64,000 bases of DNA, taken from assembly GCA_035641315.1 (NCBI GenBank), contig DASQUK010000057.1, positions 1,268-65,267 on the forward strand, given 5' to 3'. This DNA is from Acidimicrobiales bacterium. Lineage in GTDB: Bacteria > Actinomycetota > Acidimicrobiia > Acidimicrobiales > VFJN01. The notes beneath the pieces were generated by a model. That model was not told the DNA's origin. It saw only the letters and a list, made by a program, of their open reading frames with translations, and searched no databases. A program made the position numbers and the translations under genes. This document shows positions 23,043 to 26,722 of this stretch, piece after piece. Each line of letters starts with the position of its first letter. Within the stretch, counting starts at the first letter, position 1.

Positions 23043-23980
23043 CGCCGTGTGCCGTAGACGCCGTAGACCGCGAGGATCAGCGCGGCGAGCACCACCCCCA
23101 CGGTGACGGCGATGCGCACCGAGCCCGTGCGCTGGATCCAGTCGCTGACGTCATAGGACCAGCCGGTTACCACGTCGGTGATGCTCGACGACGGGATCAC
23201 GCCGCCCGACGCCCGCGCCACCCGCACCTCGAGCCAGCCGTAGTAGGCCACGTAGGCGCCGGCCAGCGCCACCAGCCCGCCCGCCACCCGACCGATGTAG
23301 GGCTGGACCCGGCGCAGGAACCGCACGACCGAGGTGCGCGCCAGCGCCATGGCCACCGTGAGCCCGGTCAGCACCAGCGTCATGCCCAGGGCGTAGATGC
23401 CGAACACCAGCAGGCCGTCGGCCACCGACTCCCGGTTGATCGTGCCCGATACCGCGGTGAGGAACAGCGGCAGGGTGCAGCCGATCGAGGCGATGGCGTA
23501 CGACACGCCGAACACGAACATCGACGGCGCCGTCCGCTCCCGGCCGCCCCGGTCCAGCCGGGGCAGCTTCACGTTGAGCTCGAAGCCGCCGAGCATGGCG
23601 AGGCCGAGCGCGAACAGCGCCAAGCCGATGACGATCGAGATCCACGGCACGTTCTCGTAGACGGGCAGCGACGTCAGCTCCACCGCCAGCCCCGCCAGCG
23701 CGAAGACGGCCATGAACCCGGCCGACACGGCTAGCGCCACTCGCAGCGCGGTGGCGACGCTCGCCCGGGCCTCGCCCACCTCCCGGCCCGAGACACGTCT
23801 CCCGCTCCCACGGCCGCTCGGGCCGGGGGAGCGGAAGGCATGTTCGTCGATCCCCAGGAAGTAGGCCAGGTAGGCGGGCAGCATGGCGAACCCGCAGGGG
23901 TTGACGGCGGCCACCATGCCCTGGGTCAGGAACAGGGCGAGCGGCCCCTCGGGGCCGATGCGGGCGAGCACGCCGATCAC
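22985..23980 (-). CDS. ccdA: Cytochrome c biogenesis thiol-reductant transporter CcdA (DsbD-family), with an enlarged first loop and C-terminal extension
   Basis: …AAVNPCGFAMLPAYLAYFLG… and …ASIGCTLPLFL… are the two CcdA Cys motifs. The GTG at 23980 overlaps the resA-like stop (GTGA). The 3' end overlaps convergent pdxH by 58 nt, so the C-terminus is uncertain. The upper part of the track ORF 22985..24850 is read-through. Confidence 0.8.
   Translation of the reverse strand: MIGVLARIGPEGPLALFLTQGMVAAVNPCGFAMLPAYLAYFLGIDEHAFRSPGPSGRGSGRRVSGREVGEARASVATALRVALAVSAGFMAVFALAGLAVELTSLPVYENVPWISIVIGLALFALGLAMLGGFELNVKLPRLDRGGRERTAPSMFVFGVSYAIASIGCTLPLFLTAVSGTINRESVADGLLVFGIYALGMTLVLTGLTVAMALARTSVVRFLRRVQPYIGRVAGGLVALAGAYVAYYGWLEVRVARASGGVIPSSSITDVVTGWSYDVSDWIQRTGSVRIAVTVGVVLAALILAVYGVYGTRRQGARRSMRQPDDRVVSRQ
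23798..23838 (+). repeat. REP-like unit (short hairpin form) lying in frame inside ccdA
   Basis: TCTCCCGCTCCCACGGCCGCTCGGGCCGGGGGAGCGGAAGG has the same core as 43215..43252. It is translated on the minus strand as …AFRSPGPSGRGSGR… within the first CcdA loop. Confidence 0.75.
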
Positions 23981-24564
23981 GCGGCGATCCCGAAGTGGTC
24001 CTCGAGCGCCGAGCGCAGCCCGGCTTCGTCGAAGGCCCGGCTGCGGACGTCGACCACCGTGCCGTCGGCGTCGATGAACACGGTGGTCGGCATGTTGATG
24101 CCGCCGAAGTAGGTGAGCGCGTCCTGCCCGCTGTCGCCGAACGTGGGGTACGTGACGCCGGTGCGCTCGACCGTGTCGAGGGCCAGCTCGTCGCTGTCCT
24201 GGTAGGCGATGCCGATGATCGTGACGCGGTCGCCGACGTCCCGGTGGACCGCCTCGAAGGCCGGCATCTCGCGGATGCAGGGCACGCACCACGAGGCGTA
24301 GAAGTTCACGACGACCGGCGTGGACCCCAGCAGCTCGCCCAGCTTGCGGTCGGGGCCGCCGTCGAGCGCCGCCAGCGTCACGTCGGCGGTCGAGTCCGGC
24401 AGCTCGCCTGCGGGGGTGAGCTGGTACGAGTCCGACTCGGCGGCGTCGTCGTCGGCCGACGAGTCGTCGTCGTCCCCGAACAGGGCCACGGCTCCGATCG
24501 CCACGACCACGGCCAATGCGGTGGCGATGACCAGGGGAAACGGGTGGATGCGGCGGGCGGCCAC
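23977..24564 (-). CDS. TlpA/ResA-like thiol-disulfide oxidoreductase (membrane-anchored thioredoxin fold)
   Basis: N-terminal TM anchor, then the WCVPC active site within …VVVNFYASWCVPCIREMP…. Lies upstream of ccdA in the same operon. Confidence 0.88.
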   Translation of the reverse strand: MAARRIHPFPLVIATALAVVVAIGAVALFGDDDDSSADDDAAESDSYQLTPAGELPDSTADVTLAALDGGPDRKLGELLGSTPVVVNFYASWCVPCIREMPAFEAVHRDVGDRVTIIGIAYQDSDELALDTVERTGVTYPTFGDSGQDALTYFGGINMPTTVFIDADGTVVDVRSRAFDEAGLRSALEDHFGIAA

Positions 24565-24618
24565 GGGCTACGACCGTACCGCCGGGGCTCGTATCATCGG
24601 CAATCGCCCCGACCCGCC

Positions 24619-24657
24619 GGCCTGGGGGCACCGCCGCCGCGCGGTGGCCCCCAGGCC
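24619..24657 (-). terminator. GC-rich hairpin immediately downstream of the whiB7-like stop
   Basis: GGCCTGGGGGCACC-(10 nt)-GGTGGCCCCCAGGCC forms a ~14-bp stem. There is no clear U-tract, so it may be a factor-independent terminator or only a stabilising hairpin. Confidence 0.5.
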
Positions 24658-24668
24658 TCGTGCAGGAC

Positions 24669-25076
24669 CTATGCGATACGCACGATCGCCACGTCCTGCA
24701 GGTGCTCGGGGATGGGAATCTCGGGAAGCTGGTCCTCGGGCCGGGGCAGCTTGGGCGGACGGCCCCGGCGCCGCTTGGTGGCGAGGATCTTCCCGTTGAG
24801 GAACAGCTGACCGCCCCAGACGCCCCAGGGCTCGCGCCGCTCGAGGGCACCCTCGAGGCAGGGGATCATGGCCGGGCAGGTGGCACAGATGTGCTTGGCC
24901 CGGGCGACGTCCTGCAGCTCCTCGCTGAAGAACATGCCGGCGAGCCGGCCGCTGCCGTCGTTGCAGCGGGCATGCGCCCACCACGTGTCCTCGCTGGTGA
25001 GGGCGTCGGGCTCGGCCTCATCGGTACTTCGGTCGGTCAGGTCGAGTATCTCGTCGGGTGCCAGTGGGGCGATCAT
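24669..25076 (-). CDS. whiB7: WhiB-family Fe-S transcription factor with C-terminal AT-hook (WhiB7-like)
   Basis: 135 aa with four Cys (C-x27-C-x2-C-x5-C). …ALERREPWGVWGGQLF… is followed by KRRRGRPPK, matching the M. tuberculosis WhiB7 layout (…AEPWGVWGGEIF…RPRGRPRK). Confidence 0.85.
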   Translation of the reverse strand: MIAPLAPDEILDLTDRSTDEAEPDALTSEDTWWAHARCNDGSGRLAGMFFSEELQDVARAKHICATCPAMIPCLEGALERREPWGVWGGQLFLNGKILATKRRRGRPPKLPRPEDQLPEIPIPEHLQDVAIVRIA

Positions 25077-25160
25077 CGGCCTATTCCCTTTGCGTCTGTT
25101 GTCGTGTCTGTATTGGTCAGTCGTTACGGGTTGTCGGTGTCGGGTCGGCGGAGGTGGCGG

Positions 25161-25199
25161 GAGAAAGAAGAAGGCCGCCGGGGTGTCCCGGCGGCCTTC
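25161..25199 (-). terminator. Intrinsic terminator between the upstream small ORF and whiB7 (candidate attenuator)
   Basis: Minus strand reads GAAGGCCGCCGGG-ACAC-CCCGGCGGCCTTC followed by TTCTTTCTC. The 13-bp GC stem plus pyrimidine/T-rich tail lies ~90 nt upstream of the whiB7 ATG. Confidence 0.7.
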
Positions 25200-25228
25200 G
25201 GAGGTTTCGCGCTGTGCGCCTGATCTGG

Positions 25229-25438
25229 TCAGGGGAAGCGCTCCGAGAGCCGTCGGGTCGGTCGGTCGTTGGTGAACAGCCGGAAGGTGGCGGACACCGG
25301 CTTGCCGGCCGACACCTGGAGCCACGTGTGCTCGGGCATGGGCGCGGCGATGCCACCGGGGATGAGGTGAACGGCGCAGGCCACCCGGCGCGCGGCACCG
25401 GCCATCTGGCCGTTCTCTTGGTTGGTGCCGGCGTACAT
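25229..25438 (-). CDS. Small conserved-looking ORF (69 aa) in the whiB7 leader region; function unknown
   Basis: MYAGTNQENGQMAGAARRVACAVHLIPGG…. It shows strong GC3 codon bias typical of real genes here and ends 30 nt before the terminator hairpin. The track ORF start at 25516 is less likely. Confidence 0.5.
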   Translation of the reverse strand: MYAGTNQENGQMAGAARRVACAVHLIPGGIAAPMPEHTWLQVSAGKPVSATFRLFTNDRPTRRLSERFP

Positions 25439-25530
25439 GGGTCCTGGGCCGTCCTCTCGTGTCGTGGTGGGTCGAGTCAGTGGCGGAGAAGCGCCATAGG
25501 GTTTCAAGGCCACCACGCGACTCCGCCGCC

Positions 25531-25545
25531 CGTCAATGAAATATT
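25531..25545 (-). promoter_or_regulatory. AT-rich tract abutting a TTGACG -35-like hexamer (candidate WhiB7-type promoter)
   Basis: Minus strand AATATTTCA-TTGACG is the most AT-rich spot in the window. I could not assign a convincing -10. Confidence 0.3.
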
Positions 25546-25568
25546 GCGATCTGGCGCAAATCGTGTGT

Positions 25569-25593
25569 CGAACGGCAGAAACGCTGCCGTTCG
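25569..25593 (-). terminator. Hairpin downstream of the MBL-hydrolase gene
   Basis: CGAACGGCAG-CGTTT-CTGCCGTTCG (minus strand) lies 11 nt after the stop at 25604 and is followed by ACACACGATTTG. Confidence 0.55.
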
Positions 25594-25603
25594 CGACTGT
25601 GCG

Positions 25604-26722
25604 TCAGCTGGCGACCTCGTAGACGAGGTCGGGGCCCCGGTCGTCGACCGTCACGCGGCCCTGGTGCCGTAGGTGCTCGAGGTGCGCGTACGTCTCGCTC
25701 TCTGCCATCTGGCCCCAGGCCCGGGGGTGGAACACCTGCTGCGTCACCGCCTCGACGGTGGCGCGCCCGGCCGCGGCGGTGGCCTGTTGGATGGCGTCGA
25801 GGCGCTCGCGGTGATGCCGGCGGATGGCGTCGACCCGGCCCGGGAGGTCGTCGAACGGGTGCCCGTGCGCCGGCAGCGCCAACCGCACGCCCTCGAGCTC
25901 GCGCACCTTGGCCAGGCTGGCCAGGAAGTTGGCCAGCGGATCGGGTCCCGCGCCCATCCCCGACACGTGCGGCGTGATGGTGGGCAGCACGTGGTCGCCC
26001 GCCAGCAGCAGTCCCTCGGCCGGGTCGAGCAGGCACAGGTGGTCGAGCGTGTGCCCCGGCGTGTGGATCGCCACCCAGTCGCGGCCGGCCAGGCGGATCA
26101 CCTCGGCGTCATCGAGCCGTCGGCTGGGCTTGGGCGAGCGCAGCCAGCGGGGGACGAGGCGTCGGACCAACGGGTTCCGGTACCGCTGGCGGCCCCCGGG
26201 AACGAACTCGGCGTCACGCCACGGGAGCTTGGAGCCGACCGGCCCCTTGGGCGGGCGATCGCGCACGATGTCGTCGTCGGGCTCCAAGGCGTCGGGATCG
26301 CCCTCCTCGTCGGGATCGAACCAGGTGCGGAAGCTGCGGTGGGTGACGACCTCCGCACCGGACTCCGAGCGCAGCTTGTCCGCCCCGCCGAAGTGGTCGG
26401 GATGGCTGTGGGTGACGATGACCGTGTGGACGTTCCGGGGCGCGGCGCCGATCTGGCGCAGCCGGTCGCCGAGCGCCCGCCACGTGGCCGGGCCGGGCAT
26501 GCCGGGATCGACCACGGCCAGCCCCCGCTCGTCCTCCAGGGCGTAGCAGTTGACGTGGCCGAGGCCGGGCATGGAGATGGGCAGCTGCATGCGCAGGATG
26601 CCCGGCGCCACCTCGGTCACCTCCGCGTTCGCCGGCAGCGCCTCTTGGCGCGGGGGTCGAGCGGCGCGAGTACCGGGAGGCGGGGCCGGGGACGGGGCGG
26701 GTGACGCAGGGGGCGGGGTCAC
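25604..26722 (-). CDS. MBL-fold metallo-hydrolase
   Basis: …VIVTHSHPDHFGG… (HxHxDH motif) plus downstream His/Asp ligands. The Pro/Ala-rich N-terminus makes the start uncertain. Confidence 0.85.
   Translation of the reverse strand: MTPPPASPAPSPAPPPGTRAARPPRQEALPANAEVTEVAPGILRMQLPISMPGLGHVNCYALEDERGLAVVDPGMPGPATWRALGDRLRQIGAAPRNVHTVIVTHSHPDHFGGADKLRSESGAEVVTHRSFRTWFDPDEEGDPDALEPDDDIVRDRPPKGPVGSKLPWRDAEFVPGGRQRYRNPLVRRLVPRWLRSPKPSRRLDDAEVIRLAGRDWVAIHTPGHTLDHLCLLDPAEGLLLAGDHVLPTITPHVSGMGAGPDPLANFLASLAKVRELEGVRLALPAHGHPFDDLPGRVDAIRRHHRERLDAIQQATAAAGRATVEAVTQQVFHPRAWGQMAESETYAHLEHLRHQGRVTVDDRGPDLVYEVAS

What the first reader, a model, noticed from the sequence alone, without database searches (positions are those of the whole stretch)
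24669..25560. WhiB7-like regulator with a ~460-nt leader containing an AT-rich/-35 element, an upstream ORF and an intrinsic terminator: a candidate attenuation switch
The regulator has the WhiB7 hallmarks: four Cys, EPWGVWGG, and a C-terminal AT-hook RRRGRPPK.

Reading upstream on the same strand, the following elements appear:
1. The most AT-rich spot of the window abuts a TTGACG hexamer (AATATTTCA-TTGACG, 25531..25545). This is the layout reported for WhiB7-autoregulated promoters.
2. A 69-codon ORF (25438..25229).
3. A strong terminator lies 30 nt after that ORF's stop and ~90 nt before the whiB7 ATG (13-bp GC stem plus TTCTTTCTC, 25161..25199).

In mycobacteria and streptomycetes, whiB7 induction by ribosome-targeting drugs works through uORF-dependent anti-termination in a long leader. 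The geometry here is analogous. However, the upstream ORF is much longer than I would expect for a leader peptide and shows gene-like codon bias, so it may instead be a genuine small protein whose terminator is read through.
Basis: partly seen in the sequence, partly recalled or inferred. Interest (0 to 1): 0.6.

Follow-up and report, generated by a model that had tools for sequence, protein, structure and literature searches.

The report
whiB7 leader attenuator, Acidimicrobiia version
This is a complete copy of the known control region of the actinobacterial stress and antibiotic-resistance regulator gene whiB7 (self-activated promoter, translated sensor reading frame, antiterminator and terminator), found here in an uncultured Acidimicrobiales bacterium; it is ordinary in kind.

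Summary
The gene at 24669..25076 (-) is a WhiB7-type regulator: four Cys, EPWGVWGG, an RGRP AT-hook, and M. tuberculosis WhiB7 as best solved-structure match. Upstream lie the window's most AT-rich spot abutting TTGACG, a 69-codon uORF (25438..25229) and a 13-bp terminator (25199..25161).

New here: uORF codons about -10 to -5 (25257..25241) are complementary to the terminator's 5' arm. Together they form a long antiterminator hairpin with the uORF stop codon at its tip. This pairing forms in the predicted fold of 87 of 87 related leaders, covaries with the terminator arm, and beats shuffled and slid controls.

The uORF occurs once per genome and always sits next to whiB7. Its frame stays open, but all three codon positions diverge equally, so it behaves as a translated sensor, not a functional small protein.

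The mechanism matches the published whiB7/wblC uORF attenuation of Mycobacterium and Streptomyces. Verdict: a new member of a known kind, in class Acidimicrobiia, and of low interest.

The parts
24669..25076 (-). whiB7-type regulator gene (135 aa). It has an acidic N-terminal extension, a Wbl core, EPWGVWGG, the AT-hook RRRGRPPK, and a conserved tail PRPEDQLPEIPIPEHL.
   Evidence: Sequence. Pfam Whib at 3.8e-14. Best solved-structure match is M. tuberculosis WhiB7 7KIF, E = 5.6e-15 and 58.9 bits, against 29.8 bits or less for WhiB3 and WhiB1. Orthologues are 93-96% identical in nine of ten same-genus genomes, 85% in the tenth.
25085..25090 (-). Shine-Dalgarno-like AAGGGA, 8 nt before the whiB7 ATG.
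   Evidence: Sequence. The block AAAGGGAATGGGCCGATG is conserved in the genus alignment.
25091..25160 (-). C/A-rich, T-poor spacer between the terminator and whiB7. Its length and sequence vary, and no promoter-like site lies in it.
   Evidence: poorly conserved; 0 promoter-like sites; mean composition over 87 loci: C 0.39, G 0.24, A 0.28, T 0.09.
25161..25199 (-). Intrinsic terminator. 5' arm GAAGGCCGCCGGG (25199..25187), loop ACAC, 3' arm CCCGGCGGCCTTC (25182..25170), U-tract TTCTTTCTC (25169..25161).
   Evidence: Hairpin alone is -29.4 kcal/mol. The stem core GGCCGYCGG/CCGGCGGCC is conserved in 92 loci. On alignment A1, 95.3% of cells are paired, the covariation score is 0.200 against 0.130 in shuffles (0 of 500 reach it), and slid controls give 27-59%.
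25187..25257 (-). Antiterminator: one long hairpin. CCCGACGGCT (25257..25248) pairs with the terminator's 5' arm, and CGGAG (25245..25241) pairs with CUCCG (25203..25199). The apical stem-loop carries the uORF stop codon.
   Evidence: The fold of the nascent leader truncated after the 5' arm gives -36.0 kcal/mol. The same fold appears in 87 of 87 distinct loci, with a mean of -37.4 against -25.8 kcal/mol for the terminator. The variable Y in the arm covaries with its partner: U-A 40, C-G 31, U-G 5. Duplex energy is -19.4 against -15.4 kcal/mol in shuffles, lower in 85 of 89 loci, and the position is fixed 35-60 nt upstream of the stem. On the unfitted MAFFT alignment, 76% of cells pair against 30-52% when slid, and covariation is 0.175 against 0.131 (0 of 500).
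25219..25233 (-). Apical hairpin of the antiterminator (CCUGA-CCAGA-UCAGG), containing the uORF stop codon TGA at 25231..25229.
   Evidence: Relatives have a hairpin of different sequence that always embeds the stop codon, for example CCCTCTCAG-TAGCA-CTGAGAGGG and GTAGC-AGCC-GCTAC.
25229..25438 (-). uORF, 69 codons plus stop: MYAGTNQENGQMAGAARRVACAVHLIPGGIAAPMPEHTWLQVSAGKPVSATFRLFTNDRPTRRLSERFP. The translated sensor frame.
   Evidence: -; no Pfam or NCBIfam match.
- One copy per genome, always just upstream of whiB7.
- 68-71 codons in the genus, with only in-frame indels.
- The stop lies 23-33 nt before the stem in nearly all of 87 loci.
- GC at codon positions 1/2/3 is 0.67/0.57/0.91, and all 20 amino acids are present.
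25373..25450 (-). Conserved nested hairpin (H1) spanning the uORF ribosome-binding site, start codon and the first 22 or so codons. Its 3' arm is the motif GCCGG-N4-GCGCG, read as the peptide AG.AR.
   Evidence: predicted in 33 loci, with arm sequences that differ between clades (CGGCACC/GGUGCCG against CAGCACC/GGUGCUG); mean -38.2 kcal/mol against -34.2 with the upstream arm shuffled. AG.AR in 31 of 85 uORF frames and 0 in other frames; the Ala codons are fixed as GCC and GCG.
25477..25497 (-). Six-codon mini-ORF (MALLRH*), coincident with a small hairpin UGGCG/CGCCA, near the predicted 5' end of the transcript.
   Evidence: Conserved in the genus; L012 has the compensatory form UGGCA/UGCCA.
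25507..25515 (-). Probable extended -10 element (TG-G-TGGCCT), 18 nt after the -35 hexamer. The transcription start is predicted near 25500.
   Evidence: Inference from conserved spacing. TTGACG, then about 14 nt, then (C/T)GTGG followed by a T-N4-T hexamer (TCCGAT, TCGGAT, TGCGAT, TTCGAT) is seen in many of the 87 loci (by eye; not counted). The generic consensus scan did not call it.
25531..25545 (-). WhiB7-type promoter core: the AT-rich element AATATTTCA (25545..25537) abutting the -35 hexamer TTGACG (25536..25531).
   Evidence: most AT-rich spot of the window. In 72 of 87 loci the most AT-rich 9-mer upstream of the uORF is followed within a few bases by a -35-like pentamer, in nearly all cases TTGAC. 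The published WhiB7 site is an AT-rich sequence 3 bp upstream of the -35 element (PMC10727445).
25544..25592 (-). Two conserved upstream inverted repeats: the hairpin GAACGGCAG-CGTTT-CTGCCGTTC (25592..25570) and the palindrome TTGCGCCAGATCGCAA (25559..25544). Role unknown; possibly an insulating terminator or an operator.
   Evidence: Conserved in the genus even where the upstream gene differs.

Best explanation
This is the uORF-dependent transcription attenuator of whiB7.

**Proposed sequence of events**
1. Transcription starts near 25500 from a weak promoter. Its -35 hexamer (TTGACG) is preceded by an AT-rich site for the WhiB7 AT-hook.
2. The 69-codon uORF (25438..25229) is translated behind RNA polymerase.
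3. If a ribosome runs unhindered to the last codons and the stop codon, it occupies or unwinds the 5' strand and the apical hairpin of the antiterminator (25257..25219). The terminator's 5' arm (25199..25187) is then free to pair with the 3' arm. The hairpin plus U-tract forms, and transcription stops 84 nt before whiB7.
4. If ribosomes are slowed or stalled anywhere in the first 55 or so codons, the antiterminator zips up as soon as the 5' arm leaves the polymerase. Possible causes are ribosome-targeting drugs, shortage of any charged tRNA (all 20 amino acids are encoded), or other translation stress. The antiterminator is the more stable fold: -36 against -29 kcal/mol here, and -37 against -26 on average.
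5. The terminator then cannot form, whiB7 is transcribed, and WhiB7 activates its own promoter.

**Shown here, by computation**
- The anatomy of the leader.
- Conservation and covariation of both alternative helices.
- The fixed position of the stop codon inside the antiterminator.
- Exclusive linkage of the uORF to whiB7.
- Absence of protein-level selection on the peptide.

**Inferred, not shown**
- The transcription start.
- Actual translation of the uORF.
- The inducing signals.
- Autoregulation by WhiB7.
For: - **Regulator identity.**, with the sequence motifs matching the published definition (PMC10727445).
- **Terminator.**
- **Antiterminator.**: present in 87 of 87 loci; U-A/C-G covariation at the variable arm position; 0 of 500 shuffles reach the observed covariation; slid controls give 30-52% pairing against 76% observed.
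- **uORF stop position.** 23-33 nt before the stem and inside the apical hairpin in nearly all of 87 loci.
- **uORF linkage.** One copy per genome, always adjacent to whiB7.
- **uORF evolution.** The frame is kept open through in-frame indels while all three codon positions diverge equally. GC3 is gene-like at 0.91.
- **Promoter.** The AT-rich element followed by a -35-like pentamer, nearly always TTGAC, is found in 72 of 87 loci.
- **Uniqueness in the genome.** A covariance model of the element hits once in this genome, at 109 bits; the next hit scores 19.5 bits.
- **Reach beyond the class.** The model also finds leaders of WhiB7-type genes in other classes of the phylum: 6 of 14 out-of-class hits tested.
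- **Published mechanism.** The same mechanism is described for Mycobacterium and Streptomyces.
Against: - There are no transcript, ribosome-profiling or reporter data for this organism or for any Acidimicrobiia member.
- The predicted -10 element lacks the usual A at position 2, and the generic promoter scan found nothing.
- The Shine-Dalgarno-like AGGA lies only 3 nt from the uORF ATG, and the start region is predicted to sit in the base of a hairpin. How well the uORF initiates is therefore unknown.
- In this particular genome the antiterminator has an A.C mismatch: the arm carries C where most relatives carry U. The duplex is -18.3 kcal/mol, against about -23 in close relatives.
- A ribosome parked exactly on the stop codon would cover only the 3' edge of the CCCGACGGCU strand. 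Disruption of the antiterminator therefore relies on melting the inner helix and on kinetics, which are inferred.
Confidence: 0.87

Rival explanations
1. The 69-codon ORF encodes a genuine small protein with a function of its own. The hairpin would simply be its transcription terminator, which is partly read through into whiB7.
For: - GC3 is gene-like at 0.91.
- The ORF has 69 codons.
- Recurrent motifs (AG.AR, KP, RP.RR) appear in the uORF frame but rarely in the other frames.
Against: - No family match.
- Divergence is equal at the three codon positions, unlike whiB7.
- Peptide similarity is lost within the taxonomic family.
- The conserved peptide motifs coincide with RNA helices and use fixed synonymous codons.
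- The stop codon is always embedded in the antiterminator.
- The ORF is never found away from whiB7.
Confidence: 0.04
2. The terminator/antiterminator switch is real, but it is set by something other than uORF translation. Candidates are a ligand or protein binding the conserved 5' hairpins, or Rho acting on the C-rich spacer.
For: - A conserved 5' hairpin H1 and a mini-hairpin have no assigned role.
- The spacer after the terminator is C/A-rich and T-poor.
- No anti-antiterminator was found.
Against: - No Rfam family matches, even with relaxed thresholds.
- The open frame and the stop-codon position are conserved across 87 loci, which only a translation-dependent mechanism requires.
- The published whiB7 mechanism is translation-dependent.
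Confidence: 0.06
3. The elements are a chance juxtaposition: a GC-rich hairpin and an accidental ORF in a high-GC genome, with whiB7 transcribed from a promoter of its own.
For: Long accidental ORFs and GC-rich hairpins are common at 72% GC.
Against: - The whole arrangement recurs in 92 loci across the class.
- Covariation supports both helices.
- No promoter-like site and no conservation lie between the terminator and whiB7.
Confidence: 0.01

Closest known systems
whiB7 5' leader of Mycobacterium (M. tuberculosis, M. smegmatis, M. abscessus): uORF-mediated transcription attenuation (Burian and Thompson 2018; Lee, Lee and Roe 2022; Poulton et al. 2023)
   Same: - A long leader.
- An autoregulated promoter with an AT-rich site next to the -35 element.
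- A translated uORF.
- An intrinsic terminator before whiB7.
- An antiterminator built from overlapping uORF and terminator sequence.
- A uORF of tens of codons encoding many different amino acids.
   Different: - The uORF here has 69 codons, against 40 in M. tuberculosis.
- Alanine is not markedly enriched: 14.5%, against 12% in neighbouring genes.
- The lineage is the deep-branching class Acidimicrobiia.
- There is an extra conserved hairpin over the uORF start.
- The regulator carries an additional conserved C-terminal tail of about 25 residues.
- Nothing has been tested experimentally here.
wblC leader of Streptomyces coelicolor (Lee, Lee and Roe 2022, Mol Microbiol 117:179; cited; paper not held)
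   Same: The same logic applies. Complete uORF translation favours the Rho-independent terminator, and impaired translation favours the antiterminator.
   Different: I could not compare the sequences or structures directly, because the paper is not in the library and no Streptomyces leader was retrieved with its attenuator.
Classical amino-acid operon leaders (E. coli trp, his, leu)
   Same: The position of the ribosome on a leader ORF chooses between mutually exclusive antiterminator and terminator hairpins.
   Different: - There is no run of one regulatory codon; the uORF is long and of mixed composition, so it reports general translation speed.
- No 1:2 anti-antiterminator pairing was found. 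An untranslated leader is therefore predicted to read through rather than terminate.

Membership tests
WhiB7/WblC subfamily of Wbl transcription factors | Four invariant Cys that bind a [4Fe-4S] cluster | tested here: met
   Cys38, Cys64, Cys67 and Cys73 in a C-X25-C-X2-C-X5-C spacing (translation). Pfam Whib at 3.8e-14. Cluster binding itself is not testable here.
WhiB7/WblC subfamily of Wbl transcription factors | Beta-turn G[IVL]W[GA]G preceded by the WhiB7-specific EPW motif (PMC10727445) | tested here: met
   The protein contains EPWGVWGG, aligned to the same motif of M. tuberculosis WhiB7.
WhiB7/WblC subfamily of Wbl transcription factors | C-terminal AT-hook (RGRP) | tested here: met
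   KRRRGRPPK at residues 101-109, aligned to KRPRGRPRK of 7KIF.
WhiB7/WblC subfamily of Wbl transcription factors | Closer to WhiB7 than to other Wbl paralogues | tested here: met
   WhiB7 scores 58.9 bits, against 29.8 bits for WhiB3 and 27.5 bits for WhiB1. No NCBIfam model matched.
whiB7/wblC uORF-mediated transcription attenuator | A uORF in a long leader, linked to whiB7 | tested here: met
whiB7/wblC uORF-mediated transcription attenuator | A Rho-independent terminator between the uORF and whiB7 | tested here: met
whiB7/wblC uORF-mediated transcription attenuator | An antiterminator hairpin that uses overlapping sequences of the uORF and the terminator | tested here: met
   (prediction plus covariation; no structure probing).
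whiB7/wblC uORF-mediated transcription attenuator | The uORF is translated | tested here: inconclusive
   All evidence is indirect: the frame is kept open with in-frame indels, the stop position is fixed, and GC shows a period-3 pattern. There are no ribosome-profiling or reporter data.
whiB7/wblC uORF-mediated transcription attenuator | Read-through is induced by ribosome-targeting antibiotics or amino-acid starvation | not testable with these tools
   This needs experiments.
whiB7/wblC uORF-mediated transcription attenuator | A WhiB7-dependent promoter with an AT-rich sequence about 3 bp upstream of the -35 element | tested here: met
   The sequence layout is met here and in 72 of 87 loci. 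Autoregulation itself is not testable.
whiB7/wblC uORF-mediated transcription attenuator | Alanine enrichment of the uORF (reported for mycobacteria, Poulton et al.) | tested here: inconclusive
   Ala is 14.5% in this uORF and 14.2% on average over 85 uORFs, against 12% in three neighbouring proteins. This is at most a slight enrichment.
Any curated Rfam family | A match to a covariance model | tested here: not met
   No match at E up to 1 in 24000..26500. No family of Rfam release 15 matched this leader, even at relaxed thresholds.

The most novel reading that the evidence does not exclude
The leader may carry more information than the published model of 'any uORF plus terminator and antiterminator' needs. 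Three features go beyond that model:

- The terminator core GGCCGYCGG/CCGGCGGCC is nearly invariant across a whole class and is detectable in other classes.
- A conserved structured hairpin lies over the uORF start.
- The uORF tail has the form R-P-x-R-R-[P/L]-x-E-x-x-P-stop, with a C-terminal proline in 46 of 85 loci.

These could mean that the nascent peptide or the termination context is itself selected to park the ribosome on the antiterminator, and that the 5' hairpin synchronises polymerase and ribosome. In that case the element would be an ancient, phylum-wide RNA family with additional functional parts.
Probability: 0.15. Interest if true: 0.45.

Novelty: new member of a known kind. 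Interest (0 to 1): 0.22.

Why it matters
The finding extends the whiB7 translation-stress attenuator, so far characterised in Mycobacterium and Streptomyces, to the deep-branching and mostly uncultured class Acidimicrobiia. That implies the switch predates the split of these classes.

The 81-sequence alignment (A1) and covariance model (R1) could seed an RNA family, since none in Rfam release 15 matched this leader. They could also help annotate whiB7 leaders and their unannotated uORFs in metagenome-assembled genomes.

The finding does not change understanding of the mechanism.

Tried and rejected
- **Rfam.** A scan with relaxed thresholds gave no match.
- **NCBIfam.** No match for WhiB7 or for the uORF peptide.
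- **Anti-antiterminator.** I looked for a trp-like 1:2 pairing that would sequester the antiterminator's 5' strand. Folding the nascent RNA of about 40 loci gave no consistent partner, so I dropped it.
- **Peptide-level conservation.** I tested whether conserved uORF peptide motifs (AG.AR, W, KP) reflect selection on the peptide. AG.AR coincides with the RNA motif GCCGG-N4-GCGCG, uses fixed synonymous codons, and lies in a hairpin with compensatory changes. The 'conserved' W occurs in 84 of 85 uORF frames but also in about 64 of 85 control frames, so it is largely an alignment effect.
- **Alanine enrichment.** Not marked.
- **Second whiB7-like copy.** The copy at G000:C12:3648-3953 has no uORF, terminator or AT-rich promoter upstream, and it reads in a different frame after the AT-hook.
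- **Generic promoter scan.** It found nothing. The -10 assignment rests on conserved spacing only.
- **Key paper.** Lee, Lee and Roe 2022 is not held in the library. The comparison with the published antiterminator therefore rests on secondary descriptions.
Full report
**Observation**

On the minus strand the window reads, 5' to 3':
- a conserved hairpin (25592..25570);
- a palindrome (25559..25544);
- AATATTTCA abutting TTGACG (25545..25531);
- a 69-codon ORF (25438..25229);
- a 13-bp GC-rich hairpin followed by TTCTTTCTC (25199..25161);
- after 84 more bases, a 135-codon gene (25076..24669).

The gene product matches Pfam Whib (3.8e-14). It has the four Cys, the EPWGVWGG turn and the RGRP AT-hook that define WhiB7 (definition in PMC10727445). 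Its best match among solved structures is M. tuberculosis WhiB7 (7KIF, 5.6e-15, 58.9 bits), well ahead of WhiB3 and WhiB1.

The AT-rich block is the most AT-rich 9-, 12-, 15- and 20-mer of the whole 71.7%-GC window. The terminator is called by the scan, which found 4 terminator-like sites in the region against 0.4 expected.

**Source organism**

The closest public loci are metagenome-assembled genomes labelled Acidimicrobiales or Acidimicrobiia. The window's genome is a 313-contig assembly.

**Conservation of the arrangement**

A WhiB7 orthologue is found in 37 of 41 related genomes. In the ten other genomes of the genus, the roughly 450-nt stretch from the conserved upstream hairpin to the terminator is alignable, including promoter, uORF and terminator. 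The spacer between terminator and whiB7 is variable, and the sequence upstream of the conserved hairpin differs between genomes.

Across 110 loci from the class and beyond, 92 carry a terminator with the same stem core, GGCCG[U/C]CGG...CCGGCGGCC, upstream of whiB7. Nearly all of these have an ORF of about 50-100 codons that ends 23-33 nt before the stem.

A six-frame search with the 69-residue peptide finds exactly one copy per genome, always a few hundred bases upstream of whiB7. Similarity fades from 84% to about 40% and then to nothing within the taxonomic family, whereas WhiB7 stays 63-89% identical there.

**The antiterminator**

It exists.
- CCCGACGGCU (25257..25248, uORF codons about -10 to -7) pairs with the arm GGCCGCCGGG.
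- The adjacent CGGAG (25245..25241) pairs with CUCCG (25203..25199), just before the arm and overlapping its first base.
- Between them sits an apical hairpin that contains the uORF stop codon.

Folding the nascent leader truncated after the 5' arm gives this long hairpin in 87 of 87 distinct loci. The mean energy is -37.4 kcal/mol, against -25.8 for the terminator hairpin. For this window the values are -36.0 and -29.4.

The complementary segment binds the arm better than dinucleotide shuffles do (-19.4 against -15.4 kcal/mol, lower in 85 of 89 loci). It also sits at a fixed distance, 35-60 nt upstream of the stem.

The one variable base of the arm covaries with its partner: U-A in 40 loci, C-G in 31, U-G in 5. 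Two divergent lineages with an arm GCCGCUGGGAG have CUCCCAGCGG upstream.

I also counted pairs on a MAFFT alignment that was not fitted to any structure (A1).
- Antiterminator: 76% of cells are paired, against 30-52% when the partner is slid. The covariation score is 0.175, against 0.131 in shuffles, and 0 of 500 shuffles reach it.
- Terminator: 95.3% of cells are paired, with covariation 0.200 against 0.130.

Both mutually exclusive helices are therefore under selection.

**Is the uORF a protein?**

It is not a protein in the usual sense. Within the genus, mean pairwise divergence at codon positions 1/2/3 is 0.106/0.136/0.105 for the uORF and 0.035/0.019/0.157 for whiB7. There is no purifying selection on the peptide, and third positions are more constrained than in a real gene.

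Yet the frame stays open. Lengths are 68-71 codons in the genus, with in-frame indels only. GC3 is gene-like at 0.91, and the stop codon is fixed relative to the terminator. That is the signature of a sequence that must be translated but whose product does not matter.

The recurrent peptide motifs can be accounted for by RNA.
- The C-terminal RP.RR[PL].E..P overlaps the antiterminator's 5' strand.
- AG.AR is the 3' arm of a conserved hairpin over the uORF start, spelt GCCGG-N4-GCGCG with fixed synonymous codons. Its partner strand differs between clades in a compensatory way.

The length does not argue against a leader function. The M. tuberculosis whiB7 uORF has 40 codons. Mycobacterial uORFs are described as longer and more diverse than classical leader peptides.

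**Mechanism**

The best-supported account is the published whiB7/wblC attenuation mechanism. A ribosome that reaches the end of the uORF prevents the antiterminator from nucleating. The terminator then forms and whiB7 stays off. Slowed translation anywhere earlier in the uORF lets the more stable antiterminator form first. whiB7 is then transcribed, and WhiB7 boosts its own promoter through the AT-rich site.

The uORF encodes all 20 amino acids, so it should report shortage of any charged tRNA as well as drug-induced stalling.

The steps that are inferred rather than shown are the transcription start, uORF translation, the inducers and autoregulation. No anti-antiterminator was found, so an untranslated leader is predicted to read through.

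In this genome the arm carries C where most relatives carry U. This creates an A.C mismatch in the antiterminator and a G-C pair instead of a G.U pair in the terminator. That should bias this copy towards termination.

**Promoter**

In 72 of 87 loci the most AT-rich 9-mer upstream of the uORF is followed within a few bases by a -35-like pentamer, in nearly all cases TTGAC. This matches the published WhiB7 binding layout of an AT-rich sequence 3 bp upstream of the -35 element.

About 14 nt further on, many loci have (C/T)GTGG followed by a T-N4-T hexamer. I read this as an extended -10 element (25515..25507 here). The assignment is an inference, and the generic scan did not call it.

**Distribution**

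A covariance model built from A1 (R1) hits this genome once, at 109 bits, with the next hit at 19.5 bits. The element is therefore not reused elsewhere in the genome.

In 301 genomes sampled from the phylum, 57 have a hit at E <= 0.001. These include 11 of the 14 listed same-order genomes. Of 14 out-of-class hits inspected, 6 lie upstream of WhiB7-type genes. The leader is therefore probably homologous across classes.

Rfam has no matching family. The held literature has nothing on whiB7 leaders in Acidimicrobiia.

Earlier notes of this scan describe the same module in many other Actinomycetota genomes. I treat those as leads that agree with this report, not as evidence.

**Verdict**

The alternative, that the uORF is a genuine small protein, is rejected. 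The finding is a complete and typical whiB7 attenuator in a class where it had not been described in the literature I could search: a new member of a known kind, and of low interest.

**Limits**

The key mechanistic paper was not available.

Noticed in passing
window 25373..25450 (-): A conserved three-tier hairpin covers the uORF ribosome-binding site, ATG and first 22 or so codons. Its 3' arm is GCCGG-N4-GCGCG, read as AG.AR in 31 of 85 uORFs. The arms differ between clades in a compensatory way. It may be a polymerase pause hairpin or a gate on uORF initiation; its role is unknown.
   Followed up: partly
window 25477..25497 (-): A six-codon mini-ORF (MALLRH*) coincides with a small hairpin UGGCG/CGCCA right at the predicted 5' end of the transcript. 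It is conserved in the genus, with a compensatory UGGCA/UGCCA in L012.
   Followed up: no
window 25544..25592 (-): A perfect 9-bp hairpin (GAACGGCAG-CGTTT-CTGCCGTTC) and a palindrome (TTGCGCCAGATCGCAA) lie just upstream of the AT-rich site. Both are conserved in the genus even where the upstream gene differs. They may be an insulating terminator and an operator for another regulator.
   Followed up: no
window 24672..24770 and 24975..25076 (-): The WhiB7 orthologues of this class carry a conserved tail of about 25 residues after the AT-hook (PRPEDQLPEIPIPEHL..V.IA) and an acidic N-terminal extension. Both are absent from the 92-residue M. tuberculosis protein. WhiB7-type proteins of other classes found with the RNA model have a vaguely similar tail (HPLPLHL...AEAC).
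   Followed up: no
G000:C12:3648-3953 (locus L111): A second whiB7-like sequence (73% identical over the core) sits on a 6-kb contig. It has no uORF, terminator or AT-rich promoter upstream, and it reads in a different frame after the AT-hook. It may be a decayed paralogue or bin contamination (contamination estimate 3.8%).
   Followed up: partly
window 25191 and 25253 (-): This genome has C in the terminator's 5' arm where most relatives have U, while the uORF strand keeps A. The result is an A.C mismatch in the antiterminator and a G-C pair instead of a G.U pair in the terminator. This should make the off state tighter than in sister species.
   Followed up: partly
window 25229..25234 (-) and 85 related loci: The last uORF residue is proline in 46 of 85 loci (codons CCC, CCG, CCT, CCA), although the surrounding hairpin sequence varies. 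From general knowledge, a C-terminal Pro slows peptide release in E. coli. It could help park the ribosome on the antiterminator.
   Followed up: partly
window 25091..25160 (-): The spacer between terminator and whiB7 is C/A-rich and T-poor (here A 28, C 33, G 18, T 5 of 84 nt, counted to the base before the whiB7 ATG; class mean C 0.39, G 0.24). It is either an unstructured region for whiB7 initiation or a Rho-loading-like stretch.
   Followed up: no
window 24619..24657 (-): An 11-bp GC hairpin (GGCCTGGGGGC...GCCCCCAGGCC) without a U-tract lies directly after the whiB7 stop codon. It precedes a TlpA/ResA-like thiol-disulfide oxidoreductase gene (23977..24564) and ccdA.
   Followed up: no
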